DNA from: a virus
Lineage: Duplodnaviria > Caudoviricetes
Virus record (IMG/VR): IMGVR_UViG_3300021339_000007
Span: 16 to 64,015 of that record
Reading direction: 5' to 3' (one strand)
DNA length: 64,000 nt
In this document: positions 24,177-39,240 of the stretch, piece after piece
Numbering within the stretch: position 1 is the first letter of the stretch
How the letters are laid out: every line of letters starts with the position of its first letter
Notes under the pieces: generated by a model
What the model was told of the DNA's origin: nothing
Seen by the model: only the letters and a program-made list of their open reading frames with translations
The model's database searches: none
Made by a program: the position numbers and the translations under genes

Positions 24177-25523
24177 ATGGGATACGTTATTCCAGATGCT
24201 ATCAAAACCTCGGTCGAAGAGGCTGTTAAAGGCAAATCGCTTGCTCAAGTCGTGAAATTGCGCGACGCGAAGATGGCGGAACTCGGTTCGGTCTTCGAGA
24301 AGAGCGACACCGGTCAGATGGACGAGAACGGCAACAAGATCTTCGACTTTACCAAGGGCGGCTATGCGCCGACCGAGGTCAAAACGCGCAACGACGAACT
24401 CACGGTGTTCGGTGAGAAGGTCGATGAGCTGAAAGCGAACGACGAAGCCTATAAGGCGTACCAGGCGCAAGTTCGCGAGCAGGGACGCGTCAGCAACCAG
24501 TTTGCCGGCGGCAACAACGGAGCGCAGCAGGACGACAAGGACAAGAACTCCTACGAGCGCCGAGAGGGGATCAAGTCGCTTGCAGCGGAGTTCGGCGCGA
24601 ACGAAGCCTATAAGTCCTGGAAAGAGAACAAGCAGGGCTGCGTCATCGAAATCAAGGACGGAGTTCCGGCTCTCCTGGACGGCGTAAAGACCACGATGAC
24701 GACCACGGCCGGCTATACGCCGTATGTGCCGCCGGATATGCGGGTAGTCTTGTCCGCTCAGCGCCGCATCATGGTTACGGACCTCATGCCGAACGTGGAT
24801 GTGAACAGCCAGTTCGTCGCGTTCGTCCAGGAGACAACCTTCACCAATAACGCGGCGGCCGTCGCTGAAGGCGCAACCAAGCCTGAGAGCGCACTGGTCT
24901 ACACTCGTGTGACGGCGCAAATGGGCAAGGTCGCGACCACGCTTCCGGTCACTCGCGAGCAGTTGATGTTCGTGAACGCAATGGAGGCGCTGCTGAAAAA
25001 TCGGCTCGGCTTCCAGGTGAGGTTGGAACTGGAGCGAGAAGTCCTGCTGGGTTCCGGATCCTCGCCTGAAATGCGCGGTATTCAGAACACGGTCGGTATC
25101 CAGACGCAGGCGCAGTCCACCGACGACGTGTTCACCGCAATACTCAAGGCAATCACCAAGGTCAACTCTACGGTCGGAATGGCGGATGCTTCCGCAATCG
25201 TCATGAACCCCAACAACTGGCTGACGGCCCGAACGGTCAAGGATACGACCGGCCGGTTCATTCTGGGTAATCCCGACGAGATCGGGCCGCCCCGGGTTTG
25301 GGGTCTGCCGGTCGTGGCGACTATCGCCGAGACTGCCGGCACCGCGCTGGTAGGGGACTTCCAGACCTATTCCGAGCTTGACCGCGGCATGGACCTGACG
25401 GTGGAACTCGGCTACATCAACGATGACTTCACCAAGAACATCGTCCGGATGCTGGCCGAACTCTTCGCAGTCGTCCTGGTCTATCGCCCGACCGCCTTCT
25501 GCACCGTCACCGGCCTGGCCTAA
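24177..25523 (+). CDS. HK97-fold major capsid protein
   Basis: VAEGATKPES, LLGSGS, MNPNNW..KDTTGRFI, WGLPVV, VYRPTAF. Confidence 0.95.
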   Translation: MGYVIPDAIKTSVEEAVKGKSLAQVVKLRDAKMAELGSVFEKSDTGQMDENGNKIFDFTKGGYAPTEVKTRNDELTVFGEKVDELKANDEAYKAYQAQVREQGRVSNQFAGGNNGAQQDDKDKNSYERREGIKSLAAEFGANEAYKSWKENKQGCVIEIKDGVPALLDGVKTTMTTTAGYTPYVPPDMRVVLSAQRRIMVTDLMPNVDVNSQFVAFVQETTFTNNAAAVAEGATKPESALVYTRVTAQMGKVATTLPVTREQLMFVNAMEALLKNRLGFQVRLELEREVLLGSGSSPEMRGIQNTVGIQTQAQSTDDVFTAILKAITKVNSTVGMADASAIVMNPNNWLTARTVKDTTGRFILGNPDEIGPPRVWGLPVVATIAETAGTALVGDFQTYSELDRGMDLTVELGYINDDFTKNIVRMLAELFAVVLVYRPTAFCTVTGLA

Positions 25524-26780: not shown

Positions 26781-27479
26781 ATGCCTAACCCCGGCTCAGC
26801 AGACTTGCAGCGGTTCCTGATCGCCTCCGGCTTGTTCAGCAACCCGCCGACCGCCGCGCAGAAGTATATGGATTTGCGGGGCGCGATGGATGCGGCGAAA
26901 GAGGAATTCGAGCGATTGACCGGCTACCTGCCGTTCCTCAGCAGTGGCGAGCAGGAGACGCGCACATTCGACGGGCCGGAAAGCTCGATCCTGCAGCTGC
27001 GTGCGGGTCTGCTGTCTCTCACCAGCCTGGTCATCAACACCGTGACGTATACCGAGAATTCCCAGTTCGTGCTGCAGCCGACCGACGCGCCCGGGCGGAG
27101 GCTGCCGTACACCTATGTCGACTTCGGCAGCGGCTGGCAGTCCGGCGGATACGGGCTGGGCTCCGATTTCGCGTCGGGCTTCGGTGCGGGATCGGCGGTC
27201 GGTCTGGGCTATGTCGGCGGCGGTCGGCGCGCGATCAGCATCACCGGCGTCTGGGGATACTGCGCGACGCTGCCGGCGGACGTGAAGCAGGCATTGATTT
27301 CGTTCGGAGCGGCCCGGGTGGCGCCGCGGCTGATGCATAGTGTGACAGGCGGCTTGAAACAACAAAAGGTCGGCAATGACAGCTGGACGTGGGGCGAAAA
27401 CTTCTTCGGCGGGCAGATGAGCGCCTGGGACGCTGAGTTCCAGGAGGCCGTGAGAAAGTACAGGTTATTCCGGCTATGA
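26781..27479 (+). CDS. Head-tail adaptor
   Basis: FERLTG..ETRTFDG, ITGVWGY..LPADVKQA. Confidence 0.75.
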   Translation: MPNPGSADLQRFLIASGLFSNPPTAAQKYMDLRGAMDAAKEEFERLTGYLPFLSSGEQETRTFDGPESSILQLRAGLLSLTSLVINTVTYTENSQFVLQPTDAPGRRLPYTYVDFGSGWQSGGYGLGSDFASGFGAGSAVGLGYVGGGRRAISITGVWGYCATLPADVKQALISFGAARVAPRLMHSVTGGLKQQKVGNDSWTWGENFFGGQMSAWDAEFQEAVRKYRLFRL

Positions 27480-27826: not shown

Positions 27827-28030
27827 ACGATGCGATCTGTAAAGCGAGCTGCCTTCCGGTCGGCTCAGCGTATGCGGCCCGGGCATTCGTATCTGCGGCG
27901 CAGCGAGACGCGCAAGGCATCCGAAAGCCCGGCGGAGCAGGATCAGCCTGCCGATTCCGAACAGGATCTGCGATGGGAACAGCAGGTCGATGCACTGCTG
28001 GAAGCCGCCTTTAACGACTGAGAGAAACAG

Positions 28031-28612
28031 ATGCCAGTTACACCCGGTCTCTCAGAAGCCGCGCCTGACGCGATTGTCACCTATCTGAAAAGCAAGATCA
28101 CCGACCTGGACGCTCGGCTCGATCGGGACGATCAGACGCCGGGTTTGACGCCGACTGCAGCAGGGCAGATTTACCGAGGCGACCCGAAGATCATGGCGCC
28201 GTCGGCCTGGTGGGTTACGGTGGTCGGCGCCAACGCCAACGGCCGGGAGATCCAGAGCACCTTCGAGCTGATGGGTGAGAGCGGCGGCCGCGGCTTTTAT
28301 AATAAATGGTGGGGGACGATCTCTGCCTATGTGAGTATCGACACCACCTTTGACGATGATTCGTTCGTCAGCGTCGCGACACGGGATCGGCTGCTTTCGC
28401 GCCTGGCGGACTGGCTGAGGATTGACTGCTTTAATCAGCAGGCCACGCTGTTGCTCACGCTTACCAGTCAGGAGTTCAGTTCGGGCTTACAGTTCGACCA
28501 GCTCAAAGGGAACGTGCTGGAATACATCGACCGCGGCGAGGCGCCGAAGGGGTACGGCGAGACTGATTGGGTACCGTGCATTCGCGCTCACTTCGTCGGA
28601 GACTTAGCATAA
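28031..28612 (+). CDS. Putative tail terminator
   Basis: Synteny upstream of the tail tube. Confidence 0.5.
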   Translation: MPVTPGLSEAAPDAIVTYLKSKITDLDARLDRDDQTPGLTPTAAGQIYRGDPKIMAPSAWWVTVVGANANGREIQSTFELMGESGGRGFYNKWWGTISAYVSIDTTFDDDSFVSVATRDRLLSRLADWLRIDCFNQQATLLLTLTSQEFSSGLQFDQLKGNVLEYIDRGEAPKGYGETDWVPCIRAHFVGDLA

Positions 28613-28622
28613 GAGGGATGAA

Positions 28623-28865
28623 ATGTCAGATACAAAAGAGCCATCGACCGCGCCCGCCGAAACGAAGACTGCGGCATCTGAAGAGCACGCTCCCACTCTG
28701 AAGCAAGTTGCAGCAGAGGCCCGCGCTAAGGCCGTCCGCAGCCTGGAGCGGATCATCAAGGATCTCCCGGAACCCGGAGACAGCGGCGACCTGCATCTCT
28801 CCGGCACGCGTGCGCAACTCCAGCACTGCATCGACCTCATCAATCTGCACCCGTCGCACGCTTAA
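28623..28865 (+). CDS. Hypothetical protein
   Basis: RBS; operon context. Confidence 0.55.
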   Translation: MSDTKEPSTAPAETKTAASEEHAPTLKQVAAEARAKAVRSLERIIKDLPEPGDSGDLHLSGTRAQLQHCIDLINLHPSHA

Positions 28866-28877
28866 GGATATACGACC

Positions 28878-29753
28878 GTGACAAACTATTCCGATTGGGG
28901 CGGTCCCGGCTCCGTCATCCTGAAGAAGACGCTCGGAAGCGGGCCCTTCACCTTGAACTCGCAGGTGACGATCCCCTCCGCGATCGTGCAGCCCTTCAAG
29001 CCGCTGAACACGACTTATCTGCAGGCGATCAATGCGGCGCAGGGAACCTCGCTGTCCGTGGCTGGCAACCAGACCCCGGCGATCGCGCTCCGAACCTATT
29101 ACAAGCCCACGTGGGGGACCGCGGCGCTGCTGAAATCGCTCATCCAGTTCCGTGACACGACCACTTTCTATACAGACCAGTTTGCGATGCAGGTCAAATC
29201 GCAGTATCGAACGCGGAAGTTCTCGAAGGGGCGATGTACGGGCCTTACGATCACGCATACCAAGCAGGGCAACCAGCCGGGGCCGATCATCGTCGATATG
29301 GGCTTCGTGTTCATCTATGGCGATCTAGGCGGCGCGCCCGACGATCCTTCGCCTCCGACGTTTTCGGCTGCAGCGACCGATGCGGGTCAGGCGACGAATG
29401 CGGGGCAGGTCGCGTGGGCCACGGCTACGCAGGTAAAGAGCTTCCAGCTGCAGATGAACTGCGTCCAGGAATATCAGTTCTCGGATAACAACACGCTCTT
29501 TGCTGACGATATCGCAACCGGACCTCCGGACGGCGGGCTCGCGCTCGTGCAGTCAGACAGCTACACCGCAGCGCCGACCACAACGGACACGCTGAGCCTC
29601 GGCGGGGTAGGCGCGGGAATAGCTATCGCTCTCAACTTGGACCTGCACACGCCGTTCACGCCGCAAGACGGCGGTTTTATCAAATACAACAGCGCGTTCA
29701 AACTTGCCAACTTGACCACCGGCGGAATTCCGTGGGACATCACGGCACTCTAA
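28878..29753 (+). CDS. Major tail tube protein
   Basis: 291 aa, beta-rich; directly before the frameshifted chaperone. Confidence 0.7.
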   Translation: MTNYSDWGGPGSVILKKTLGSGPFTLNSQVTIPSAIVQPFKPLNTTYLQAINAAQGTSLSVAGNQTPAIALRTYYKPTWGTAALLKSLIQFRDTTTFYTDQFAMQVKSQYRTRKFSKGRCTGLTITHTKQGNQPGPIIVDMGFVFIYGDLGGAPDDPSPPTFSAAATDAGQATNAGQVAWATATQVKSFQLQMNCVQEYQFSDNNTLFADDIATGPPDGGLALVQSDSYTAAPTTTDTLSLGGVGAGIAIALNLDLHTPFTPQDGGFIKYNSAFKLANLTTGGIPWDITAL

Positions 29754-29762
29754 GGAGAAGAC

Positions 29763-30299
29763 TTGAAGCAGGCGAAGATTTTTATTATCAATAATGGCGA
29801 AGACCCATACGCGCTCCTAGATTCCGACGCCAACTTCTATGCCGTTGCTGACTGGGAGCTAAAGACGATCAAGAAACCCCCGGAGGAATTGGAGAAGGAC
29901 ACGAACGGAAAGGGTCGATGGCTGACCCTGGAACTCAAACCGGCAAAGTCGGGGCTTGACCGCGAAGCGAAACAGCGGTGCCTGGTTGGGGATGCACTGA
30001 CAGGGTTCAGGAATGACACTCTGCTGTTGCCCGGCAACCAGTTCGAATTGTTCGTTTCGAGTTGGCGGTGGGCAGACCGCGACGGCGACGACCCTCCGAA
30101 GCTGAAGGCCCCAACCGTTGATGTATTCGAATCCTTACATCCGAACGTAGCGGATAGGATCAGAATGACGCTGGATTGGCACATCCGGCCTAACATCTCG
30201 GTAGACGCTGATTTTTTTTCCGGATTGAGCGATCTGTCCACGCAGTCCTTGGAATCGAACCCTGCCAAATCCGAGCCGACGACCTCCACCCCGGAGTAA
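29763..30299 (+). CDS. Tail assembly chaperone (gpG-like)
   Basis: Position; T8 slippery run at 30212-30219. Confidence 0.7.
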   Translation: MKQAKIFIINNGEDPYALLDSDANFYAVADWELKTIKKPPEELEKDTNGKGRWLTLELKPAKSGLDREAKQRCLVGDALTGFRNDTLLLPGNQFELFVSSWRWADRDGDDPPKLKAPTVDVFESLHPNVADRIRMTLDWHIRPNISVDADFFSGLSDLSTQSLESNPAKSEPTTSTPE

Positions 30300-30511
30300 G
30301 GCTGTTCCTGGAAGAGCGGGCCGGAATGCCGCCGTTCTACCGTTCTAGGGAAAACATGGACGTGGAGACGCACGAGGTTTACCTGCATTGCCGGGGCATG
30401 GAGTTAGAGGCGCAGCAGGCAGACTCACCTCAGGAACCGGCACAGGGCGAAGTCCCAGCGCCGGACTTGTTCGACCTGGAGGCATATGGGCCGATGAACG
30501 TCGGGCTTTAA
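30212..30511 (+). CDS. -1 frameshift extension (gpGT-like)
   Basis: The -1 frame is open from the T run (FRIERSVHAV...) into MPPFYRS... and ends at TAA 30511. Confidence 0.7.
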   Translation, partial: FFFRIERSVHAVLGIEPCQIRADDLHPGVRLFLEERAGMPPFYRSRENMDVETHEVYLHCRGMELEAQQADSPQEPAQGEVPAPDLFDLEAYGPMNVGL

Positions 30512-30555
30512 ACGCCTTTGCCCGTGGGAGGAAAGCGTTACCGGGGTAACAGTTT

Positions 30556-30846
30556 TTAGCCTTCCCAGACAAGCGGACGCCAATCGGGAGGAATGATACC
30601 ATCTCGAATAGCGTTCGAGATCATGCCTCTATGCCGAAAATCAGCGCGGAGAACATGACAGCGGCGGCATAAAGTTCGCAAGTTTGATAGTTTGTTCGTC
30701 GCATTCTTGCCTGATTGGATGTGGTCAATGTGGCAAGTGTCGATTTCTAAGGGCGTCTGACAGCGGACGCACTTTCGCCCGTCGCGCTGCCAGACTTTAA
30801 CTCGAATAGCGTCCCATATTTCTTTCGGAGGTCGTTTTTTAGGCAC
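30556..30846 (-). CDS. HNH endonuclease directly downstream of pentamer array 1
   Basis: RDGRKCVRC..HIDHI..N..SNLRTLCRRCH; probable GTG start at 30846. Confidence 0.88.
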   Translation of the reverse strand: MPKKRPPKEIWDAIRVKVWQRDGRKCVRCQTPLEIDTCHIDHIQSGKNATNKLSNLRTLCRRCHVLRADFRHRGMISNAIRDGIIPPDWRPLVWEG

Positions 30847-30847
30847 T

Positions 30848-30950
30848 CTTTCAAACCCTTGTCTCGCCTTGCCTAACCCGTACACGCCAAGGCCCGCCGT
30901 AACTCGCCACGCCGGACCGTGTCAAGCCGGACCCGGTAGTACCCTAGCCC
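30848..30950 (-). ncRNA. Pentamer array 1 (GGY/GNY + NN), putative guide RNA
   Basis: gg|gct ag|ggt ac|tac cg|ggt cc|ggc tt|gac ac|ggt cc|ggc gt|ggc ga|gtt ac|ggc gg|gcc tt|ggc gt|gta cg|ggt ta|ggc aa|ggc ga|gac aa|ggg tt|tgaaag. Confidence 0.8.
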
Positions 30951-30957
30951 AATTGAG

Positions 30958-31563
30958 CTAGGATTCTGGAAGGATGTCAAACGATTCGACCGTGAAGCGG
31001 CCAAACCCTACCGACCGACCATCGGCCAAGCCGACAAGTCTGCCGGCATCGATCAATACAGTTTCCATCTGAGTTCTATTGACGACCGTCTTATCAAACA
31101 GCATATGGAATGTAGTTTCCCAACCGGGAGCGGCCGCGATCCGATAGCGAACGTTTCGGCCTTTCGTTGCGGGGTTCTTTACACTACAAATGTGCATGTA
31201 AACCGACTGGCTTGCCTCGGTCGGGATTGGTTCAGGCGGTACGACCAAGGGTTTGCCGTCGCGAGTAAACAGGATACGCTCATCATCGATCTGGAGCGTA
31301 GCAGCGACAGCGGTCTGAATGGAACCGCGTCCCGACTTGGTGTATTTCGCTGCATCACGACACATGCCGAAAATGTAAGTCGGATGCACAAACAACTGCC
31401 TTTCTGCGGTCATAAGGACCGTCTTTTTCCATTCTTCGGGGTCGTTACCCGCAACGCCGGTTCGCTCTTGCTTTTCGAGCGGAATCGCGTCGGGGCCGAA
31501 CTGGTGCCAGAGAATAGACCGAGTACCTTTGATTCTGACGCTTGCCTTGATGACGTTTGCCAT
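30958..31563 (-). CDS. Stand-alone Cas7/RAMP-like protein
   Basis: N-terminal strand VRIKGTRSIL; P..IFGM helix; C-terminal Gly-rich loop GLADGRSVGFGRFTV typical of RAMPs. Confidence 0.7.
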   Translation of the reverse strand: MANVIKASVRIKGTRSILWHQFGPDAIPLEKQERTGVAGNDPEEWKKTVLMTAERQLFVHPTYIFGMCRDAAKYTKSGRGSIQTAVAATLQIDDERILFTRDGKPLVVPPEPIPTEASQSVYMHICSVKNPATKGRNVRYRIAAAPGWETTFHMLFDKTVVNRTQMETVLIDAGRLVGLADGRSVGFGRFTVESFDILPES

Positions 31564-31610
31564 GAGAATCTTTCTGCCTGCCTACAATGCCGACAGGCGG
31601 GCGGTTTCGA

Positions 31611-31916
31611 CTAGATCAGTAATCCTGCGGCGCGGCAAGCATTGATAGCCTGCACCCTGTTGCAAACAGCGAGCTTCTTGTAAGCGTTCGATATGTGATA
31701 ATCGACCGTCCTTTTGCAAACGTATAGCTGATCGGCAATTTCCTTGTTGCTCAATCCAGTAGCGACAGCAGTAAGAACGACGACCTCTTGACGGGTAAGA
31801 GGCAAACCAGTCTCATCTTTTACTGATGGAACGTGAGGCTTACGGGCATTGGTCGGGCGGGCCTGAAGCCCCGCGAGTGACGTACAGTTCTCGAAGCGTG
31901 TAGCGATATTATTCAT
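31611..31916 (-). CDS. LuxR/GerE-type HTH regulator
   Basis: LTRQE..GLSNKEIADQLYVCKRTVDYHISNAYKKL.V.NR. Confidence 0.9.
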   Translation of the reverse strand: MNNIATRFENCTSLAGLQARPTNARKPHVPSVKDETGLPLTRQEVVVLTAVATGLSNKEIADQLYVCKRTVDYHISNAYKKLAVCNRVQAINACRAAGLLI

Positions 31917-32187
31917 TGGTGTCTCTTTCCGGCCGACCATCGACCAACCGTATACTGTGGATTAGGTCCGCCATTTTTTCAGCGCAATAGGCATCGATTA
32001 CCGCAACAAGGGCGGCATAACTAGCGTCTACGGCAGCATCCGCCAACCGGACGCGCAACGCCTGCTCATCTTGATAGTTGCGAGTCCTCATCCTTGCGCG
32101 CCGTACCTCGCAGTTGATATGCTCTCCTGCGGCGGTCTGAAATGTCGGGGACTCGCTGATCGATGTGCAGTACTTGTTATCCGGCAT
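31909..32187 (-). CDS. Hypothetical protein
   Basis: AAGGA RBS; overlaps the LuxR gene start. Confidence 0.55.
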   Translation of the reverse strand: MPDNKYCTSISESPTFQTAAGEHINCEVRRARMRTRNYQDEQALRVRLADAAVDASYAALVAVIDAYCAEKMADLIHSIRLVDGRPERDTNE

Positions 32188-32204
32188 TGTCCTTACCCTT
32201 CCTA

Positions 32205-32558
32205 TCAGGCAGCAAGGGTAAGGACAAAGGACCGACCTCGATAGGTCGGCTCTATCGTGCACGAGCAGCGGCAATCGCTGGACTCGCAGAAATCGCAGAA
32301 GTCTTCGGGCGAGGTTTCCGGCCTGCGGGCCATGTGTTCTGCGATTGCCCGTTCCTGGCGCTCGATCTGGTTCGTACGCGCTTCGCGGAGTTCGGCATTC
32401 GCAGGATCACATTCGCTGAAGCGATCCTTGAGGATTTGAAGGTAGCTCTGCATCGATTGCAGGTTCTCTGCCCAGGTGGCGGGCTGGACGGTGCCGCGAT
32501 GGTGGCCGCGATAATCGCGGGATCGAACACGGGCAGAAAGTGTGGTTGCGGTTGGCAT
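32205..32558 (-). CDS. Hypothetical protein with C-terminal Cys cluster
   Basis: AAGGAG RBS; CDFC..C.C.C. Confidence 0.6.
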   Translation of the reverse strand: MPTATTLSARVRSRDYRGHHRGTVQPATWAENLQSMQSYLQILKDRFSECDPANAELREARTNQIERQERAIAEHMARRPETSPEDFCDFCESSDCRCSCTIEPTYRGRSFVLTLAA

Positions 32559-32661
32559 TTCGTTGGTCTCCTTTGCGGTAAAGGGTAAACTGAAAGCGTC
32601 CCTTTGCGGGATGCCGGGAGGTGGTCTCAACACCGACCGGCTTATTTAGTTTACTGTGTAT

Positions 32662-32690
32662 ATTATACACCTATATTGTGTATACGTCAA
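32662..32690 (-). promoter_or_regulatory. Sigma70 promoter driving the Cas7-like/HNH operon
   Basis: TTGACG-N17-TATAAT. Confidence 0.8.
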
Positions 32691-32748
32691 GCCCGAATCC
32701 GGTGTTTTCAACATTTATTTTTGTGTATTTGTGCTGTATACTATCAGC

Positions 32749-32937
32749 ATGGAGAACACTGAACAGTCTGCACGCAAACGAGGCCCGGTGCCGGGGCCAA
32801 AAACAGAACGTTATCAGGTTCTTTTAGACCCAGACGCAGCCGATTGGGGAAAGCGGCAACCGGGCGGCCTTTCAGAACTGCTTCGTAAGCTTTTGAGCGA
32901 TGCGTACGAAAAAGCGAATTCTAGTCCATCGGGCTAG
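32749..32937 (+). CDS. Small ribbon-helix-helix-like regulator
   Basis: RGPVPGPKTERYQVLLD..GLSELLRKLL; TATACT just upstream suggests a leaderless transcript. Confidence 0.65.
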   Translation: MENTEQSARKRGPVPGPKTERYQVLLDPDAADWGKRQPGGLSELLRKLLSDAYEKANSSPSG

Positions 32938-33027
32938 AATGAACGGGCCATGGTGAGCCAAGGTTAGGTCTGGTCCGGCGGGGTCTGGCTTGGCGCGGCG
33001 GGGCAAGACAAGACAAGGGTTTGAAAG
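32931..33027 (+). ncRNA. Pentamer array 2 (GGY/GNY + NN), putative guide RNA
   Basis: g|ggc ta|gaa tg|aac gg|gcc at|ggt ga|gcc aa|ggt ta|ggt ct|ggt cc|ggc gg|ggt ct|ggc tt|ggc gc|ggc gg|ggc aa|gac aa|gac aa|ggg tt|tgaaag; same ends as array 1. Confidence 0.8.
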
Positions 33028-33089
33028 CAGGAATTGAATAGGTGCAGAGTCGAATAGCGCGTCAACTCGGTTGCATTAGAGAAGACGCG

Positions 33090-33278
33090 ATGAACACACT
33101 ACTTTGGGTTGTCGTAGGATTGTTGATATCCGCAGGTGGTATAGGCCTACTCTTCGCCGTACTGCTCGCTATGAACACTAACGAATCGGGCGCGGTAGTT
33201 GCATTCATTATCGGTGCGGCCGGCGTGGTGTCGTTGTTCACAGGTTTAATCGGAGCATTTATACTGCACCGGAAGTGA
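33090..33278 (+). CDS. Small two-TM membrane protein
   Basis: Two hydrophobic segments. Confidence 0.6.
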   Translation: MNTLLWVVVGLLISAGGIGLLFAVLLAMNTNESGAVVAFIIGAAGVVSLFTGLIGAFILHRK

Positions 33279-33305
33279 AGCGGTTTATCAGGTTCACAAG
33301 GAACA

Positions 33306-33336
33306 GGAGCGATCTCAATTAGAGATCGCTCCTTCT
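33306..33336 (+). terminator. Hairpin, probable terminator
   Basis: GGAGCGATCTC-AATTA-GAGATCGCTCC. Confidence 0.55.
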
Positions 33337-33522
33337 AGTTTGGCGGTGAAGCTTGCGCAAACGAGTTGAAGTTGAATTAGACATAAGCGAAGCTGCCCAT
33401 CGGCTTCAGACACTTATCTGCTCTTCCTGATCCTGCTTAGAAAATAACAGTGCGCGATAATTTGCAGGCTGCCACCCCGTCCGAGATTAGGGCGGGTTTT
33501 TTGTTGCCTGCTCGGAACAATC

Positions 33523-36500
33523 ATGGCTCGTAAAGTCGTTCAGGTAGATTTAGACATATCGGCTGCAGTTGCGAAGGTGCAAGAACTTGCAGCGCAACTC
33601 GACAAGCTGCGAACGGAGTCTAACATCTCGATCGGGGCACAGGGCTTGCCTGGAAACGGCTTAATGGGCACGTTTTCAAGCTCATCCGGTCCCGGCATCA
33701 ATCCGGCCACGACCGGCGGCGTCACCATGTCCGGTGGCAGCGCGTCGGTCTCCGTACCTGGAAACGTCGCAGCAGGGCCGCCATCTCTGGGGGTCTTCGG
33801 ATCGGGATTCGGAACCGGGCAAATGAACATGGTTTCCGGCACGGTTGCGGGCACACCTGCTAACGGCCGGGTTCCGTCGGATAGCGAATACGATTTCAGT
33901 GTGTCGTCTGGGTCCGCGCCGGATCAGCCTGGTTGGGCGGACGGCGAACAGTTCGCATATGTGAGAGGGCACTTTCGGCGTCACCCGCGCACGGGCAGAG
34001 CAGGTGGAGCAGGAGCACCTCCACCTCCATCGGCTACCGTATTTACCGAAGCCAGTGCGCCTTCTGATGATGACATGGGCGCACCCCCCATGCCGGTCCC
34101 TCCAACCGGCGGGGCAGGTGGGGGTGCTGCTCGTCGGCGTCGGCGCGCACGCGGTAACAATAACCGAGACGATGATGATTTCAACTTCGAGGACTACATC
34201 GGCTTTCGTACGGCCCGAGAGTTGGCACGTGGTGCGTCAGACGTTGCGAACGAATATACACGGTACACGATTTCGGGAGAACCCAATCCGCTAGCCCTGG
34301 GACAGAGCGCAGGTCTTCTAGGGGGAGGACTCTTTGCAACCGGACTGATTGCAGGCGGGATGGGGCTAGGGCCAGCGGGCATGATCGGTGCGATAGCGGC
34401 CCCGCTTATTGGCGCGGGCGTTAACGCATTTCAGGCCCCCGCCATTCAGCGACAGAACATTGCGGCATCCTTTTCTGTTTATGGTGCAGCTTCAGGGCAA
34501 GATCCCAATGGCTTAGCGTCCGGCGCGGCTCAGATCGCCTCGCAGCAGAATTCAATGTTCTATGCGCAAGGCTATGCGCAGAACGTTGCGACCGGTAACC
34601 CGGTGCGCGACTTTATCGGCGGCGCCTGGGCGACAGCGGATAACTACCTGCGTCGATGGGGAATGCACGTTGGTACCGACCAGATCAGCGCGCAGGACGT
34701 TGCTGCAATAGAACAGGCGGTTGGTTCGGCTGCATCCTCTGTTGGAGAGACGTTGACGCCTGAACAGTTGAGAAGTGCTTCTCAGCGATACGTGAGCATG
34801 GGCGGCCCAACTGGCAAGCCACTGTCTCAGGCTTCTTCTGCGGCAGTGTCGCGGTTGGGAGAGAGCGGCGGTAACCTGTTTTCGCTCTCATTGCGGGTTG
34901 GGGCGGATGCTACAAAGCTCGCAGCGAATATGCTTGGAATGCCCTTCGACGTCGAACAGGGTCGAAAAGATGCATGGGATTATCAAATAGGACAATCCCA
35001 TATCGCAGGCGCGGAAGCGATCGCATCCGGTCTTGGATCAGAATACGAACGCTCCGCCTTCAGCGGTAAGACCACGTTTGCACGCCGGCCAGAATTCGAT
35101 CGGATGCAGGCGGCACTGAGGGCTGATTATGACCTGACGGCCAGCGAGTATAACCGAATGCAGTCCGGCCCGCAGCGTGACAGTGTAGAAGCGAAGGGGC
35201 TATTCGCGCGTGGGCAGCAAGACCTTCTCCAGATAGATCGAAACCAAGCGCAACGATCCGAAGGGATTGTTGGAGACATCAGCGCAGCAGGGCGGGCAAA
35301 CCTTGCGGCGGCGAACTATCAGACGAGTATGGCAAACCTCTTCGGGGGTGAGGCGGACTTGAGGCGGGCCGGGGCTTCCACATTCGCAACGCTCATGGAT
35401 ACGGCGAATCGCTTAGAGGCCACAATCGGACTGCCGGGACAAACCGCGCAGCAGATGTACGATCAGCGCGCACTGGTCTCCGCAACCAGAGGCCAAGCTT
35501 TGCAACAGCGCACGCAACTGGTAGATGCGGGGCAACAACGGCGCTTCTTGTCTCAGGACGTGAATGTCAGCGTCTTCGCGGCGGACCTTACCGCTTCTGA
35601 GATGTTCGGAACCGATTCGCAGTTGGGTGCTACATTTGCGGCGGCGGTTGGAAGTCAAGATTTTATCGCAAACGATGCGTTCACTGCAAGCCAAAACCAG
35701 AGTGCCTCAGTTGAGCAAAAGGCACGGGACCAAGTTCGGAGTGCGAATGCCAGACAGCAAAGCCTGAATCTTCGGGCGCGGAGTCTGGACGTATTGCTCT
35801 CTCGGATTGGTGGCCGTGCTTCCATAGCCGAAAGTGACGCGTCCAACGTGCTGCTCGGGGCGGCCTACGGCGACGCCGGGGATGTAGAGCGAGCGGGCGC
35901 AGGCTTCATTGGAGCATTAGGTTCGGAAAGAGCGTCCCTTCAGGATCAGCTTCGCCAAGGCGGATTGACGGTTGAGCAGGACATTCGGCTGCGAAGCCGG
36001 GTTTCCTCGATTGAAGGGCAACAGATACGCGCGCAAATCGACGTAAGGGACACTGTGCTTGGCAGAGTAGAGACCACTGCCAACCTTGCGAACCAAGCAG
36101 CCTCCAACGAACTTAATCGCTCACTACGCCTTGGCACGGGAAGTGACGTTCGGAGCGCATCGGGCGGAATGCTTTCCTCCCTTGGCAATGAGTATTCCAG
36201 GCTGCAGGAGCAAATCGACCGAGGCGGATTGACCTTCGATCAAAGAAGCCGCGTACAGGAGCGGCAGCAGAGCATCGGTCGTTCGGTCTTCGACATTGGT
36301 CAAAACGCCATTGATGAATCAATCAGGCGCGATGATATGTCAGGCTTCGGCTTGGCGTCGATAGAGAACAGCGCCGCACGAAGGATAGCCTCTTTGATGC
36401 CCTACGGCTCAGGCGGCAGATTGAGTGCAGATGTTCGAACCATCCGTACTAATCAACAGCAACTCGGCGTCCTTCAACAACGGGAAGAGCAGTTGCGCCG

Positions 36501-36999
36501 AAGTGGAAACTTGTCTCCTGAGCGGCTGTCTTCCATCCGGGAGCAAGAGGCAAACCTTGGCGTGGAAATCGCGTCCGGCATTGCCGGCTTGACGGAAAAT
36601 GTGGCCGACTACCTTCCGGGTCTTTCTGCAGGCCGTGGCGCGAACTACTCTATGTACGACAGTCTCCAGCTTGCGGCGCTACGTGTCAATCGAACCGGCT
36701 CCAATATCCGGTCCTTCGGAGCGATCAACGGCGCCCAGGCGGCCCGGCAAGCGCATGCGTGGGACCAATTGTCCGGAGGCATGATCTCCGGCGGCCCTCA
36801 TTCGCTGACTCAGGGAATCAACCAGGGCCGCGGGACAGGCGCCATGGAGATCCTTCTGACGCAGATCCGCGATACGCTGCAACGCATCGGCAGCGGCAAT
36901 ACCGGCTCTACGCAAAGAATCGGCGAATCTGCCGGACAGGCGGCGGGGCAGATCAGTCAGCGCGATGTTGGATACGGATACGGCGGGCGCAAGCTCTAA
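33523..36999 (+). CDS. Tape measure protein
   Basis: 1158 aa, Ala/Gly/Gln-rich with helical repeats (GGLT.EQ); longest gene, at the tape-measure position. Confidence 0.75.
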   Translation: MARKVVQVDLDISAAVAKVQELAAQLDKLRTESNISIGAQGLPGNGLMGTFSSSSGPGINPATTGGVTMSGGSASVSVPGNVAAGPPSLGVFGSGFGTGQMNMVSGTVAGTPANGRVPSDSEYDFSVSSGSAPDQPGWADGEQFAYVRGHFRRHPRTGRAGGAGAPPPPSATVFTEASAPSDDDMGAPPMPVPPTGGAGGGAARRRRRARGNNNRDDDDFNFEDYIGFRTARELARGASDVANEYTRYTISGEPNPLALGQSAGLLGGGLFATGLIAGGMGLGPAGMIGAIAAPLIGAGVNAFQAPAIQRQNIAASFSVYGAASGQDPNGLASGAAQIASQQNSMFYAQGYAQNVATGNPVRDFIGGAWATADNYLRRWGMHVGTDQISAQDVAAIEQAVGSAASSVGETLTPEQLRSASQRYVSMGGPTGKPLSQASSAAVSRLGESGGNLFSLSLRVGADATKLAANMLGMPFDVEQGRKDAWDYQIGQSHIAGAEAIASGLGSEYERSAFSGKTTFARRPEFDRMQAALRADYDLTASEYNRMQSGPQRDSVEAKGLFARGQQDLLQIDRNQAQRSEGIVGDISAAGRANLAAANYQTSMANLFGGEADLRRAGASTFATLMDTANRLEATIGLPGQTAQQMYDQRALVSATRGQALQQRTQLVDAGQQRRFLSQDVNVSVFAADLTASEMFGTDSQLGATFAAAVGSQDFIANDAFTASQNQSASVEQKARDQVRSANARQQSLNLRARSLDVLLSRIGGRASIAESDASNVLLGAAYGDAGDVERAGAGFIGALGSERASLQDQLRQGGLTVEQDIRLRSRVSSIEGQQIRAQIDVRDTVLGRVETTANLANQAASNELNRSLRLGTGSDVRSASGGMLSSLGNEYSRLQEQIDRGGLTFDQRSRVQERQQSIGRSVFDIGQNAIDESIRRDDMSGFGLASIENSAARRIASLMPYGSGGRLSADVRTIRTNQQQLGVLQQREEQLRRSGNLSPERLSSIREQEANLGVEIASGIAGLTENVADYLPGLSAGRGANYSMYDSLQLAALRVNRTGSNIRSFGAINGAQAARQAHAWDQLSGGMISGGPHSLTQGINQGRGTGAMEILLTQIRDTLQRIGSGNTGSTQRIGESAGQAAGQISQRDVGYGYGGRKL

Positions 37000-37008
37000 G
37001 GCGGGGAA

Positions 37009-39240
37009 ATGCCGAACAGTTTCTTCAGCCAGACTTCGGCGCTCGTGACGGACATTCCAAGCGCTTACGGAACGGTCACATCTCCTGCCATCGCGATGAC
37101 GGTCGTCGTAGAACAGGCACATGACGAGAGCCGGTCCTATATCGACGGCCGTTTCCACAAGAAGCGAGGTTACGCGCAGGGGCAAGACAAGCCGTTCCTG
37201 CAAGACACTTACATTGTCGGAACGGGCGGCAGAACGGGCCGGGCCTTCAATATCATCGCGGGCTCCGCCTACGATAGCTGGCGCAGTCCCTACTCGGATA
37301 AGTACGGAATCTATTGGGCGGACGGCACTGCCGGTGAGACCTTCGAGGCGGTCAGCGATACGACGACGGACGGGATAGAAGCCGCTGAGATCATCGTCAG
37401 CCGGGGCGTCCCGCCGATCGGATACACTCGGACCCGCGCCAACACAAACGCCTACCTGCATCTGGCGTACCAGTCCTACCCGTACGACTACCGTGTCGCG
37501 TTTGAGGACGGGCAGGCTATCCGCCTAGACGGCACAATCGACGGCGGAAGCTCGTGGCAGCCTCTCATGGTGGCCAATGGGCTGATCACGGAGCGTTACT
37601 TCGCCGCGCAGCAGGATCATGCGTGCAGGCTGCGCTGTTGGTTTGATGCCGAAACGCAGGAGCTCTGGGTCGAGATTGGAGACAGCGGGCAAGACGGCGC
37701 CCTTCACCATTGGGCAGGTGCCGGCGCGACAGGGAAAATACGGCTGGTCGGCATGAACGGCTGGGCCGCGCTGGAGTATTACCCGCTCCAACACGCTGCC
37801 TTGACCGTAAATGTCGCGTCGCGGCCTCTGGTGTCGGTCCCGCACACGAATGCGGCTTCGGCGCGCGTTGTCGGGAACAGCCTGACGCCCACTCCCGCGG
37901 ATCAGGTCACTGAGACCGCATGGGCGACAGATGGGATCAACTTCGAATTCAGCGCGCAAGCGAGTAATCCCAACACCGCGGTCGCCCCAAAAATCAGTGA
38001 TATGACGCTGCTGGTGGATGAAACGTGGAGCGATCGGATCGACGGCGATATCTTCTCATTCACGCAGATCAATCAGCTTCGTACTACCCTGACTCGCGAA
38101 AGCCAGACATGGGACGATAACAACCGCTGCATTCTGACGTCCGGTCAGCTCTACATCAACAATCATGATGGGCGCTATAGCGGCGCCTTCGGCAACTTCG
38201 CCTGTTCGATCTCCGCGCAGCTTAACCAGGCACGGCAGGGCCGGATCACGCATCGGGGCGTCTGGTTTCCGCGCTGCATCGGAATCGCGGGCGCAGGCGA
38301 GCAGGGTATCGGGTTCGAGCGGGCGGACCCGCACCGCATGATCTCTCTGCCGTTTGCGGACAAGCGCGTCCTGATGATGGTGGATCTTGAGAATGAGGTG
38401 ATTTACGACGGGTGGCCGCTGTTCGCAGCGGTGCGGCATATCGCGCGCAAAGGCAACATCCATCCACTGTTTCTGCAGACCATTCCGTATGAGCCCGACG
38501 GGCCGGCCTCGCCGAGCTGCACGACGCCTGTTCTGCCGAGGGGGACGGGGAACAATCCGAAGTACCGATTCCAGCCCGGAATGAGCTGCTGGAGCGTGCT
38601 GTTGCTGCTCGCAGCCGACAGCGGGCTGCCGGTTGCAGGCGGCGCCTATTCCATTCCGTACTTTACCGGCTTCGACAACCAGGGGCAGCTTCGGTTTGAG
38701 CCCTATGATCCGGCCGCAACGCTGCCGCTGGTGATGTACACCTCGAATAACAACCTGGTCGATGGAAACACGGTTTTTCCAATCATTGGGCGGCTCCAAC
38801 GGTGGGCATCGACCGCGCAGATGCGATCCGATATCACGGTGCAGGGCCTGGACCCGATCTCTTATCAGCTCGCTCAGGTGCACGCTCAGACGGCGCTCGC
38901 GGTGCGCAAGGCGATTGGTTATCGGCATACCACCCTGGAGCGGAGTGCGCGATATGGATCCGGGACCTCGCTGATCGATACTGCGCGGACGGTGGTGTCG
39001 GTGTCGTCGCTTGCTTCAGAGGTCGTAAGGTTCGAGACACTCTTCTCGCCGTGGCTGAACGCGGGCGCGACCATGCTGGTGAGTGATCGACAGCTGGGTG
39101 TCGGAACCTATGTTGTAACGAACATTGAAAGCGCTTATGGGTCCGATATCCACGGCAGGAGCGGGCAGCGGCAGTGCTACAGCACCATCACAGGCCGCAA
39201 TGTGACGGCATATCCTACTTCGCTCGGGGGCCTTTTCTAA
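37009..39240 (+). CDS. Tail tip / hub protein
   Basis: Follows the tape measure gene; FDNQGQLRF and C-terminal hub-like pattern. Confidence 0.65.
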   Translation: MPNSFFSQTSALVTDIPSAYGTVTSPAIAMTVVVEQAHDESRSYIDGRFHKKRGYAQGQDKPFLQDTYIVGTGGRTGRAFNIIAGSAYDSWRSPYSDKYGIYWADGTAGETFEAVSDTTTDGIEAAEIIVSRGVPPIGYTRTRANTNAYLHLAYQSYPYDYRVAFEDGQAIRLDGTIDGGSSWQPLMVANGLITERYFAAQQDHACRLRCWFDAETQELWVEIGDSGQDGALHHWAGAGATGKIRLVGMNGWAALEYYPLQHAALTVNVASRPLVSVPHTNAASARVVGNSLTPTPADQVTETAWATDGINFEFSAQASNPNTAVAPKISDMTLLVDETWSDRIDGDIFSFTQINQLRTTLTRESQTWDDNNRCILTSGQLYINNHDGRYSGAFGNFACSISAQLNQARQGRITHRGVWFPRCIGIAGAGEQGIGFERADPHRMISLPFADKRVLMMVDLENEVIYDGWPLFAAVRHIARKGNIHPLFLQTIPYEPDGPASPSCTTPVLPRGTGNNPKYRFQPGMSCWSVLLLLAADSGLPVAGGAYSIPYFTGFDNQGQLRFEPYDPAATLPLVMYTSNNNLVDGNTVFPIIGRLQRWASTAQMRSDITVQGLDPISYQLAQVHAQTALAVRKAIGYRHTTLERSARYGSGTSLIDTARTVVSVSSLASEVVRFETLFSPWLNAGATMLVSDRQLGVGTYVVTNIESAYGSDIHGRSGQRQCYSTITGRNVTAYPTSLGGLF

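What the first reader, a model, noticed from the sequence alone, without database searches (positions are those of the whole stretch)
29652..36633. Both inferred targets flank the cassette: possible RNA-guided homing or allele exclusion
Seen: the cassette interrupts the normally contiguous chaperone-TMP junction, and the two decoded targets lie in genes on its left (tail tube) and right (TMP). Known: free-standing phage homing endonucleases cut diverged alleles of neighbouring genes in co-infecting relatives and spread by repair. Inference: guided HNH cuts on both sides could drive transfer of the cassette, or simply block tail expression in competing relatives.
Basis: inference. Interest (0 to 1): 0.8.

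Follow-up and report, generated by a model that had tools for sequence, protein, structure and literature searches.

The report
Phage VIPR-HNH cassette aimed at neighbours
A soil phage carries a recently described CRISPR-like system (VIPR) with an HNH nuclease, and its two guide RNAs spell the versions of the two neighbouring tail genes that sister phages carry, which fits a selfish element that attacks or converts close relatives.

Summary
The cassette is an HNH-armed VIPR system, a kind published in 2026 preprints (bioRxiv 10.64898/2026.04.26.720920). It has a Cas7-like Vipr gene (30958-31563, minus), two GGY-NN guide RNAs and an HNH gene.

Read by the published 1-nt-skip rule, guide 1 matches the phage's own tail-tube site at 19 of 26 bases. 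It matches the same site in three relatives at 22-24 of 26, inferred from their protein sequences. Guide 2 matches the phage's own tape-measure site at 18 of 22 and relatives' sites at up to 20 of 22. No unit-shuffled guide reached these values (0 of 5000 each).

DNA of these relatives could not be fetched, so I could not see whether they lack the cassette.

Sisters without the cassette match the guides at 25-27 of 30 and 26-27 of 28 (two further sisters score lower). Carriers match at 15 of 30 and 21-23 of 28. The sites lie beside the empty insertion site, and the carriers' flank is recoded.

So flank-directed targeting of sister alleles is real. Cutting and homing remain inferred.

This scan has noted VIPR-HNH cassettes on other DNA before, in at least 14 genomes, and three of those notes carry the same sister-targeting idea.

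The parts
28878..29753 (+). Tail tube (major tail) gene, 291 aa. It is the target gene of guide 1.
   Evidence: No Pfam or PHROG hit. ESM Atlas gives feature score 0.97 and TM 0.77 to Phage_tube_2 clusters, which is lead-level evidence. My own AF2 model was poor, pLDDT 43.5. The gene lies after a head-tail adaptor at 26781-27479.
29652..29690 (+). Own, mismatched copy of the guide-1 target site (PFTPQDGGFIKYN).
   Evidence: 19 of 26 bases, 9 of 13 units, in the codon 1-2 register. Relatives carry PFTPQDTGFVRYN, which gives 23-24 of 26.
29763..30511 (+). Tail assembly chaperone pair (G/GT-like): ORF 29763-30299, plus a -1 frame extension from the T8 run 30212-30219 to 30511.
   Evidence: The -1 frame is closed by a stop just before the T run and is then open for about 100 aa. 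No family hit. The role is inferred from position and the slippery run.
30556..30846 (-). HNH nuclease, the VIPR accessory (vap) gene, 96 aa from the inner GTG. The longest ORF reaches 30885.
   Evidence: PF01844 at 1.4e-8. A homolog lies directly downstream of vipr in 63 of 67 loci. D41, H42, N51, H64, C26 and C60 are kept in 62 of 62 sequences. The inner start matches the homologs' MPKKR start.
30848..30933 (-). vrRNA 1: 13 informative GGY-NN units (30933 down to 30869), then GGCGA, GACAA and the tail GGGTTTGAAAG, which abuts the HNH start.
   Evidence: Arrays of this kind occur in 40 of 67 homologous loci, with unit logo G95 G94 Y98 N N.
30958..31563 (-). vipr: a lone Cas7-like RAMP protein, 201 aa.
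   Evidence: 1834 homologs, none of the 120 listed named beyond 'hypothetical protein'. AF2 gives pLDDT 87.5. Foldseek top hits are Csm3/Cas7 of type III-A at E 3.4e-9, and also type VII Cas7 and Cmr4. It has a C-terminal glycine-rich loop.
31611..32633 (-). LuxR/GerE-type HTH gene (31611-31940) and two unassigned ORFs (31909-32274, 32205-32633). These are upstream genes of the leftward operon and are not conserved VIPR partners.
   Evidence: GerE at 4.1e-18. None of the 67 homologous loci holds a relative of any of the three.
32650..32690 (.). Divergent sigma-70-like promoters.
   Evidence: Minus strand TTGACG-17-TATAAT, 11 of 12; plus strand 9 of 12. These are consensus matches only.
32656..32937 (+). 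Small ORF (93 aa) transcribed ahead of vrRNA 2.
   Evidence: No family assigned. 0 of 67 loci hold a relative.
32947..33027 (+). vrRNA 2: 11 informative units (GCCAT to GGCGG), then GGCAA GACAA GACAA and the same tail GGGTTTGAAAG.
   Evidence: (inverted repeat I1).
33042..33278 (+). 78-aa membrane-like ORF, followed by terminator-like hairpins at 33305-33333 and 33476-33496.
   Evidence: Function not assigned.
33523..36999 (+). Tape measure gene, 1158 aa. It is the target gene of guide 2.
   Evidence: No family hit. The assignment rests on size, position and composition. Relatives are P0128-P0133.
36601..36633 (+). Own copy of the guide-2 target site (VADYLPGLSAG).
   Evidence: 18 of 22 bases. 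It is the best local hit in the window. Relatives carry MENYLPALSAG or MENRLPGLSAG, which give up to 20 and 19 of 22.

Best explanation
The cassette is an HNH-armed VIPR system.

How VIPR works, as published for other types: Vipr protomers coat each GGY-NN RNA. The GGY triplets are held by the protein, and the NN pairs read double-stranded DNA two bases out of every three, so wobble positions are ignored.

What is shown here: the two guides spell a site near the 3' end of the tail-tube gene and a site in the tape-measure gene as sister phages carry them. The carrier's own copies differ at 4 of 13 and 4 of 11 units.

What is inferred.
- In a cell that also holds a sister phage, the Vipr-guide filament binds the sister's alleles on both sides of the cassette position.
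- The filament recruits the HNH nuclease through the conserved C-terminal tail of HNH.
- The sister genome is cut.
- The rival is destroyed, or is repaired from the carrier's genome, which copies the cassette together with its resistant flanks. That is marker exclusion or homing.
- Tight linkage of guide and resistant allele also keeps recombinants from targeting themselves.
For: Membership of the known kind.
- RAMP fold: Foldseek to Csm3/Cas7 at E 3.4e-9.
- GGY conserved and NN hypervariable across 72 arrays in 41 of 68 sources.
- In 16 whole phage records (922 kb), all 34 arrays called lie within about 4 kb of vipr.
- The 1-nt-skip signal is reproduced. For own-locus hits scoring 14 or more, the counts under skip 0/1/2/3 are 0/5/0/0. 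For cross-locus hits scoring 16 or more they are 2/5/0/0, against 1 for shuffled guides.
- The published description was read.

Sister-allele targeting in this window.
- Guide 1: own site 19 of 26; P0122 and P0124 23-24 of 26; P0123 22-23 of 26.
- Guide 2: own site 18 of 22; P0129 17-20 of 22; P0131 16-19 of 22.
- 0 of 5000 shuffles reached the observed maxima for either guide.
- The carrier's tail-tube C-terminus next to the cassette is 0.57-0.73 identical to relatives, against 0.77-0.97 in aa 31-240. The relatives are 0.81-0.93 identical to each other there.

Nuclease link.
- HNH lies next to vipr in 63 of 67 loci.
- Catalytic D-H, N and H residues are kept in 62 of 62 sequences.
- The complex model scored 0.74, with the best of 3 controls at 0.00. 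That mark was reached by 58 of 80 solved complexes and 2 of 110 mismatched pairs. The runs agree in at least 100% of their contacts, and the partner's pLDDT is at least 88. My own alignments were used, so those counts hold only roughly.

DNA-level replicate in another lineage.
- Carriers L117 and L119 have a 2.0-2.4 kb TerL-portal gap that holds vipr and HNH. Six sisters with portals 86-89% identical have a gap of 375-421 bp and no cassette.
- Guide L054:3990: carriers 15 of 30. Cassette-less L122, L123 and L167 27 of 30. L118 and L163 25 of 30.
- Guide L053:6616: carriers 23 and 21 of 28. L118 27 of 28. L122, L123, L163 and L167 26 of 28.
- The sites lie at portal +50 to +182, beside the insertion point.
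- Carrier versus cassette-less identity at codon positions 1-2 is 0.60-0.70 in portal nt 1-180 and 0.88-0.98 in nt 181-360.

Other lineages.
- In G001 (the record of L028) the cassette sits about 1 kb upstream of a true tape measure gene (phrog_1533, 1.8e-74). One guide matches that gene at 21 of 26, in frame.
- An L067 guide matches the adjacent tail-tube gene at 20 of 26.
Against: - No cleavage, RNA or inheritance data exist for this locus.
- DNA of this phage's relatives was not obtainable, so their matches are deduced from amino acids. Leu, Arg and Ser leave the ranges I give.
- It is unknown whether those relatives lack the cassette.
- Guide 2 fits the phage's own gene at 82-85%. That would pass the preprint's 80% target threshold, so self-discrimination is unexplained.
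- No perfect target for either guide was found in IMG/VR or JGI metagenomes.
- The guide-2 site is 3.6 kb from the cassette. That is far for a classical homing site.
- Most guides of the clade have no identified target. In the whole-record self test 28 of 34 arrays were not significant. Four of the six significant hits lie 12-34 kb from vipr; three of them are out of frame and the fourth covers only seven units, so all four are probably chance.
- Cassette-less L120 and L121 carry poorly matching alleles, 23 of 28 and 19 of 30.
- One guide of the other lineage also hits other carriers. Attack on rivals, and not only entry into empty sites, is therefore part of the picture.
- The preprint reports that the VIPR types it tested act by transcriptional silencing.
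Confidence: 0.55

Rival explanations
1. This is superinfection exclusion or inter-phage defence only. The guides direct silencing or cutting of related incoming or resident phages, which benefits the carrier or its lysogen. The closeness of the targets to the cassette is incidental, or reflects only selection for linkage between a guide and its resistant allele. No copying of the cassette takes place.
For: - The published VIPR role is conflict between phages, by repression.
- Targets are essential structural or packaging genes: tail tube, tape measure, portal and TerL.
- Guide L049:2511 matches TerL of other carriers as well as of cassette-less phages, at 18-19 of 20.
- The guide-2 site is 3.6 kb from the cassette.
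Against: - In the portal lineage both portal guides hit within 182 bp of the empty site. The carriers' flank is recoded exactly there. A pure weapon has no need of this.
- In this window both cognate sites lie within 0.9 and 3.6 kb of a cassette in a 64-kb record. By my own rough estimate, two uniformly placed sites would do this about 1.4% of the time.
Confidence: 0.25
2. The system only silences. The Vipr-guide filaments bind the sister alleles, or the phage's own, and block transcription. The HNH gene is a separately acting or structural partner that is not guided to the target.
For: The only VIPR activity shown by experiment is transcriptional repression. The authors state that the accessory nucleases are uncharacterised.
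Against: - HNH is syntenic in 63 of 67 loci, with catalytic residues intact in 62 of 62 sequences.
- The complex model supports binding through the conserved HNH C-terminal tail, with score 0.74 against 0.00 for the best control.
- In several loci, this one included, the guide lies between vipr and HNH in one operon.
Confidence: 0.1
3. The guides regulate the phage's own genes. They bind its own tail-tube and tape-measure genes, for example to keep tail genes silent in the lysogen.
For: Guide 2 matches the phage's own tape-measure gene at 82-85% of NN positions, which is the best hit in the window. The cassette has its own regulators and promoters.
Against: - Relatives' alleles fit both guides better than the phage's own alleles.
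- Guide 1 fits its own site at only 73%.
- In the portal lineage the carriers' own sites match at 50-82% and sisters' at 83-96%.
- A nuclease partner would make self-binding dangerous.
Confidence: 0.05
4. The matches are chance, found by a reader who was free to choose units, register and strand.
For: Guide 1 against the phage's own tail tube is not above the window background.
Against: - 0 of 5000 unit-shuffles reach the relatives' scores for either guide.
- The better match falls at the homologous residue positions of the relatives.
- The same pattern is seen at DNA level in another lineage.
Confidence: 0.01

Closest known systems
VIPR systems (Vipr protein, vrRNA and vap gene). Sources: bioRxiv 10.64898/2026.04.26.720920; the cryo-EM preprint 10.64898/2026.04.26.720927; the phage-satellite preprint 10.64898/2026.10.15.759431.
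   Same: - A lone small RAMP protein.
- Guide RNAs of GGY-NN pentamers followed by a 3' tail.
- A 1-nt-skip code aligned to wobble positions.
- Carried by a phage.
- Targets in competing phages.
- An accessory gene next to vipr. The first preprint's text names predicted nucleases or helicases for types III-V, and its Fig. S21 legend names HNH domains.
   Different: - The characterised systems (type II of phage SUSP1 and of a Pseudomonas fulva prophage) act by repression and aim at satellites, prophage regulators or other VIPR loci.
- The preprint describes the nuclease-bearing types III and V as enriched in defence islands and as host immunity.
- The preprint found no hit of 80% or more on a guide's own contig.
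- Here the HNH type sits inside a phage tail module. Its guides spell sister alleles of the neighbouring structural genes, and one guide reaches 82-85% on its own contig.
- Which numbered type this locus belongs to could not be checked, because the figures and supplements were not available to me.
Free-standing phage homing endonucleases and marker exclusion (the seg and mob genes of T-even phages). Recalled from general knowledge, not from a call.
   Same: - A small nuclease cassette sits between conserved essential genes.
- It is absent from close sisters.
- Recognition sites in the sisters lie near the empty site.
- The carrier's flanks are diverged and resistant. This is shown for the portal lineage.
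   Different: - Recognition would be by guide RNAs and not by the protein.
- There are two or more programmable sites, on both sides of the cassette.
- Neither cleavage nor biased inheritance has been shown.
RNA-guided nucleases that serve their own mobile element: TnpB and IscB of IS200/IS605 elements. Recalled. IscB appeared only as a weak HNH-domain match.
   Same: A guide encoded by the element directs a nuclease to the element-free allele, so that repair restores or spreads the element.
   Different: - The protein family is different: a RAMP filament with a separate HNH, not a RuvC/HNH single effector.
- The code is gapped.
- No transposase is present.
- The guides read neighbouring genes, not the element's own junction.

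Membership tests
VIPR system | A small stand-alone RAMP (Cas7-like) protein with a glycine-rich loop. | tested here: met
   AF2 gives pLDDT 87.5 and pTM 0.83. Foldseek against the PDB puts Csm3/Cas7 on top at E 3.4e-9 and TM about 0.52. An invariant G-rich C-terminal loop is present. No other cas gene was seen among the ORFs scanned between 25.6 and 43.4 kb.
VIPR system | Sequence or structure homology to the published Vipr proteins (SUSP1, P. fulva, UniProt X1U2U4). | not tested
Membership rests on the other rows.
VIPR system | Tandem GGY-NN (YNNGG) repeats next to vipr, 9 or more units long, with GGY conserved and NN hypervariable among homologs. | tested here: met
   The window has 13+2 and 11+3 units. 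There are 72 arrays in 41 of 68 sources, with logo G95 G94 Y98 N N. In 16 whole records arrays were called only within about 4 kb of vipr.
VIPR system | Targets obey the 1-nt-skip rule, with the skipped base at the wobble position. | tested here: met
   Skip 1 exceeds skips 0, 2 and 3 and exceeds shuffled guides. The robust targets lie in genes with the skipped base at the wobble position; four of the five guides read the coding strand and L054:3990 reads the template strand. Relatives' alleles were tested.
VIPR system | A conserved accessory (vap) gene. | tested here: met
   An HNH homolog lies directly downstream of vipr in 63 of 67 loci. L008 and L067 end close to vipr and L026 holds only a partial vipr match; L062 has room downstream.
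VIPR system | The vrRNA is expressed as an RNA of about 100 nt that co-purifies with Vipr. | not testable with these tools
   Only DNA runs hold this phage. Rfam has no family for it; the only match in the window was a tRNA.
VIPR system | A conserved, structured 3' tail. | tested here: inconclusive
   Both arrays in the window share GACAA-GGGTTTGAAAG. Across the clade the 16 nt after the arrays are poorly conserved. I did no folding.
Homing endonuclease cassette (behaviour, not protein family) | The cassette is present in some close relatives and absent from others at the same junction. | tested here: inconclusive
   For this window, the relatives' DNA was not obtainable. For the portal lineage of the same clade the feature is met: the gap is 2005 or 2449 bp with the cassette and 375-421 bp without.
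Homing endonuclease cassette (behaviour, not protein family) | The recognition site is present in the cassette-less allele near the insertion point and is altered in the carrier. | tested here: met
   In the window, at amino-acid level: own 19 of 26 against 23-24 of 26, and own 18 of 22 against up to 20 of 22. The cassette status of those relatives is unknown. In the portal lineage, at DNA level: carriers 15 of 30 and 21-23 of 28, against cassette-less 25-27 of 30 and 26-27 of 28, at portal +50 to +182.
Homing endonuclease cassette (behaviour, not protein family) | Cleavage of the empty allele and super-Mendelian inheritance of the cassette. | not testable with these tools
   This needs biochemistry or co-infection experiments.

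The most novel reading that the evidence does not exclude
VIPR-HNH cassettes may be programmable, RNA-guided homing or marker-exclusion elements of phages. Their guides read, blind to wobble positions, the essential genes on both sides of the empty site in sister phages. The HNH cuts there, and repair copies the cassette together with its recoded, resistant flanks. That would be a natural gene drive built from a CRISPR-like RAMP filament. It would also mean that nuclease-armed VIPR arose as a selfish phage element and not as host immunity.
Probability: 0.35. Interest if true: 0.85.

Novelty: new variant of a known kind. Interest (0 to 1): 0.62.

Why it matters
VIPR was described only in 2026, and its nuclease-bearing types are uncharacterised. 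The preprints present them as host defence.

The evidence here points elsewhere. Across several phage lineages, HNH-type cassettes sit among structural genes, and their guides spell sister phages' versions of the neighbouring genes. In one lineage the empty-site sisters carry the targets and the carriers carry recoded flanks.

If the HNH cuts, this is an RNA-guided homing system. That would be a new way for phage genes to drive through populations. It would also give a functional rationale for wobble-blind recognition, since wobble-only synonymous changes would not spare a rival, though the codon-family switches seen in carriers here would. And it would offer a compact programmable nuclease: a 20-kDa RAMP, an 11-kDa HNH and an RNA of about 85 nt.

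The locus also gives concrete target and non-target allele pairs for a direct test of how many mismatches protect self.

Tried and rejected
DNA of this phage's relatives.
- The four other soil runs that I laid hold the identical phage with no differing letter, so they add no alleles.
- Gapped guide patterns found nothing in IMG/VR or in JGI metagenomes.
- Protein-seeded scans for tail-tube relatives found nothing in IMG/VR or in metagenomes. A scan for the tape-measure relative P0131 in IMG/VR also found nothing.
- The listing of cluster members gave no accessions. I therefore could not confirm that tail tube P0124 and tape measure P0129 share the 9336-bp contig, nor count the genes between them.
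- No Vipr among the 120 best homologs has a longest contig of 9336 bp. This is only a weak hint that the contig lacks the cassette.

Other dead ends.
- tblastn of Vipr against GenBank phages gave no match.
- My AF2 model of the tail tube was too poor for a fold search, pLDDT 43.5.
- A PDB profile search with the tail-tube alignment gave nothing.
- Full-length (global) scoring of the guides against the window does not single out the claimed sites. Local scoring does so for guide 2 only.
- A test of whether self-sites cluster near vipr in whole records was not decisive. Two strong in-frame hits lie 3.0 and 5.0 kb from vipr. Four weaker hits lie 12-34 kb away; three of them are out of frame and the fourth covers only seven units.
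- Cross-record hits scoring 14-16 are at the noise floor of a 0.92-Mb search, where shuffled guides gave 10 hits of 14 or more. One of them, L056 to G009, is a low-complexity TC run.
- The cassette's LuxR-type gene, its three small ORFs and the membrane ORF are not VIPR partners (0 of 67 loci).

Literature.
- No paper in the searched library holds both 'vrRNA' and 'homing'.
- 'homing' occurs 0 times in the first and third VIPR preprints. I did not search the cryo-EM preprint for that word by itself.
- Supplements and figures were not available. The first preprint's data S3 and S4 and figs S21 and S22 may already list HNH-type loci, their type number and their targets.

Full report
WHAT IS THERE.

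The window is nearly all of a 64,015-bp IMG/VR virus record, which is linear and 71% complete by CheckV. In the tail module, genes run rightward in this order:
- a head-tail adaptor at 26781-27479;
- a 291-aa gene at 28878-29753, which ESM Atlas places with Phage_tube_2 tail tubes (feature score 0.97, TM 0.77; lead-level evidence);
- a 178-aa ORF at 29763-30299.

The -1 frame of that ORF opens exactly at a T8 run (30212-30219) and runs about 100 aa to 30511. This is the usual G/GT chaperone arrangement.

The 1158-aa tape measure gene starts only at 33523. Two divergent operons lie between, driven from promoter-like sites at 32650-32690.
- Leftward: two unassigned ORFs, a LuxR/GerE HTH gene, a 201-aa gene (30958-31563), a pentamer array (30933-30848) and an HNH gene (30846-30556).
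- Rightward: a 93-aa ORF, a second pentamer array (32947-33027), a small membrane ORF and terminator-like hairpins.

WHAT KIND OF SYSTEM.

I had missed the arrays on first pass.

Both arrays are phased GGY-NN units that end in the same GACAA-GGGTTTGAAAG.

The 201-aa protein has 1834 relatives at E 0.001 or better. The best 120 are 59-74% identical across distant phyla, and none carries a functional name. Its AF2 model (pLDDT 87.5) matches Csm3/Cas7 of type III, type VII Cas7 and Cmr4, with a best E of 3.4e-9.

I fetched 67 homologous loci, 26 from genomes and 41 from IMG/VR.
- 40 hold at least one array by my caller, mostly on the vipr strand just downstream. The unit logo is G95 G94 Y98 N N.
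- 63 hold an HNH homolog directly downstream, with D-H, N and H kept in 62 of 62 sequences.
- None holds a relative of the cassette's other genes.
- In 16 whole phage records (922 kb), all 34 arrays called lie within about 4 kb of vipr.

A literature search found the system already described. This is VIPR, bioRxiv 10.64898/2026.04.26.720920. I read its Results, Discussion and two Methods sections. Its main points are these:
- a Vipr RAMP protein and vrRNAs of GGY/NN repeats;
- a 1-nt-skip rule that falls on wobble positions;
- dsDNA targets on either strand, with no PAM;
- seven types, of which III-V carry predicted nucleases or helicases;
- HNH named in the Fig. S21 legend.

Two further preprints exist.
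- A cryo-EM preprint describes a filament and an R-loop triplex and leaves the accessory nucleases uncharacterised. I read passages only.
- A phage-satellite competition preprint. I read the outline and passages.

THE TWO TARGETS.

Guide 2 (11 units) matches the phage's own tape-measure gene at 36601-36633 at 18 of 22 bases. This is the best local hit in the window. One of 200 unit-shuffles reached it, and p was 0.01.

Guide 1 (13 units) matches the phage's own tail tube at 29652-29690 at 19 of 26 bases. By itself this is not above the window background.

The decisive evidence is comparative. The tail tube has five relatives in 5.8 billion proteins, and the tape measure has six.
- Where the phage's own tail tube reads PFTPQDGGFIKYN, the three close relatives read PFTPQDTGFVRYN or PFSPQDTGFVRYN. 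Each of the three own-versus-relative differences (G/T, I/V, K/R) moves to the residue that the guide spells. The match becomes 23-24 of 26 for P0122 and P0124, and 22-23 of 26 for P0123.
- A more distant relative, P0125, supplies the guide's Val at the one remaining unit.
- Where the phage's own tape measure reads VADYLPGLSAG, relatives read MENYLPALSAG or MENRLPGLSAG. The first three units then match, giving up to 20 and 19 of 22.
- None of 5000 unit-shuffled guides reached 24 or 20 on the relatives' 8021 residues. The null maxima were 20 and 18.

These counts come from amino acids. Leu, Arg and Ser leave the ranges I give.

The carrier's tail-tube C-terminus, next to the cassette, is also unusually diverged. 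It is 0.57-0.73 identical to relatives, against 0.77-0.97 in aa 31-240.

DNA of this phage's relatives could not be had.

In a cross-search of all guides against all loci, the top hit was a guide of L053 on the portal gene of L049. It scored 22, where the skip controls for that guide reached only 13. The same guide scored 15 on its own portal.

In that lineage the cassette lies between TerL and portal. A scan with the portal protein returned 80 loci.
- Two are carriers: L117 and L119, with TerL-portal gaps of 2005 and 2449 bp that hold vipr and HNH.
- Six sisters with portals 86-89% identical have gaps of 375-421 bp and no cassette.
- A further two sisters are cut before TerL.

Scores over the informative units:

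| Guide | Carriers | Cassette-less sisters | Site |
|---|---|---|---|
| L054:3990 | 15/30 and 15/30 | L122, L123, L167: 27/30; L118, L163: 25/30; L120, L121: 19/30 | portal +50 to +100 |
| L053:6616 | 23/28 and 21/28 | L118: 27/28; L122, L123, L163, L167: 26/28; L120, L121: 23/28 | portal +132 to +182 |

Further observations in that lineage:
- blastn homology between a carrier and a cassette-less sister breaks from 43 bp upstream of the portal start to +126. The 1.8 kb that replaces this stretch in the carrier holds the cassette.
- At codon positions 1-2, carrier and non-carrier are 0.60-0.70 identical in portal nt 1-180 and 0.88-0.98 in nt 181-360.
- A guide of L049 reads the last ten codons of TerL. 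It matches other phages at 16-19 of 20, whether they carry the cassette or not.
- L049's own allele matches at 15 of 20. It has Leu, Arg and stop-codon family switches. These are the kind of change that escapes a wobble-blind guide.

This is the geometry of a homing element: targets on both sides of the empty site, and a resistant, recoded flank in the carrier.

HOW GENERAL.

Within about 6 kb of vipr, own-locus hits scoring 14 or more number 0/5/0/0 for skips 0/1/2/3. Ten of 72 arrays beat 95% of their shuffles.

In whole records, 6 of 34 arrays do so. The two strong in-frame cases are this window and G001. In G001 the cassette again sits about 1 kb upstream of a bona fide tape measure gene, on the opposite strand, and a guide matches that gene at 21 of 26. 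An L067 guide matches the adjacent tail tube at 20 of 26.

The other four significant hits lie 12-34 kb from vipr; three of them are out of frame and the fourth covers only seven units, so they look like chance. Most guides have no identified target. Flank-directed targeting therefore recurs, but I have not shown it to be the rule.

MECHANISM AND ITS STATUS.

Shown here:
- membership of VIPR by fold, arrays, code and accessory gene;
- guides that fit sister alleles better than the carrier's own;
- HNH synteny and intact catalytic residues.

Supported by a model only: Vipr-HNH binding. The score was 0.74, with the best of 3 controls at 0.00. That mark was reached by 58 of 80 solved complexes and 2 of 110 mismatched pairs. 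The runs agree in at least 100% of their contacts, and the partner's pLDDT is at least 88. My own alignments were used, so the counts hold only roughly. The interface is the invariant C-terminal tail of HNH (residues 73-90) against Vipr residues 75-82 and 162-175.

Taken from the preprints: filament assembly, NN pairing and the R-loop triplex.

Inferred: guided cutting of the sister genome, exclusion of the rival, and copying of the cassette with its flanks.

Unexplained: how guide 2 spares its own gene at 82-85% identity. One possibility is that the three 5'-end mismatches block completion of the R-loop, which the cryo-EM preprint describes as advancing towards the 5' edge. That is speculation.

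NOVELTY.

The system is known. This scan has noted VIPR-HNH cassettes in at least 14 other genomes. Three of those notes carry the same sister-targeting idea, and one places an island between chaperone and tape measure. These are unchecked AI notes and I do not count them as evidence.

What I did not find in print is the reading as an RNA-guided homing or marker-exclusion element. No paper in the library holds both 'vrRNA' and 'homing', and the word is absent from two of the VIPR preprints.

The first preprint reports no hit of 80% or more on a guide's own contig, and it presents the nuclease types as host immunity. This locus and its clade differ on both points.

I rate it a new variant of a known kind, with interest 0.62. 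The comparative evidence is strong. The function is untested.

Noticed in passing
window 30212-30511: A T8 slippery run at which the -1 frame opens for about 100 aa beyond the 178-aa ORF. This is a classic G/GT tail-chaperone frameshift signal. The extension ends 45 bp before the HNH stop codon.
   Followed up: partly
window 32640-32740: A divergent promoter region between the two cassette operons, with repeated TGTGTATA/TATACAC-like palindromes that look like operator sites. I did no further analysis.
   Followed up: no
window 30934-30950 and 32929-32946: Both arrays are preceded by the same heptamer, GGGCTAG, 10-16 nt before the first GGY unit. It may be a shared 5' processing or start signal, or it may be chance.
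   Followed up: no
window 28000-38000: The identical phage sequence, with no differing letter, lies at low depth in four other soil runs from two other studies. The phage is therefore widespread and very uniform.
   Followed up: partly
L120 and L121, portal +50 to +182: Two sisters without the cassette carry poorly matching, resistant-like portal alleles (23 of 28 and 19 of 30). Resistance therefore circulates without the cassette.
   Followed up: partly
L049 3377-3410 and L053 about 5729-5779: The carriers' own target alleles use codon-family switches (Arg CGN to AGR, Leu TTR to CTN, stop TGA to TAG). These keep the protein but break pairing at codon positions 1-2.
   Followed up: partly
G011:C1:40029-40595: A second, distant Vipr paralog (29% identity, E 1.5e-12) lies 2.3 kb downstream of the first in one IMG/VR record.
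   Followed up: no
G012:C1:9282-9956: The vipr match is split into two pieces (query residues 1-101 and 114-197), with extra DNA between them. This may be an insertion or a decayed copy.
   Followed up: no
window about 24833-24904 (minus strand): A 24-unit guide of L049 has a local score of 16 here, and 1 of 72 shuffled guides reached 16. This is borderline and may be chance.
   Followed up: no
HNH residues 71-94 (window 30565-30636, minus strand): An invariant C-terminal tail of the HNH proteins (R71, H72, G74, M75, I85, W89, R90, W94), outside the nuclease core, is the predicted docking surface on Vipr.
   Followed up: partly
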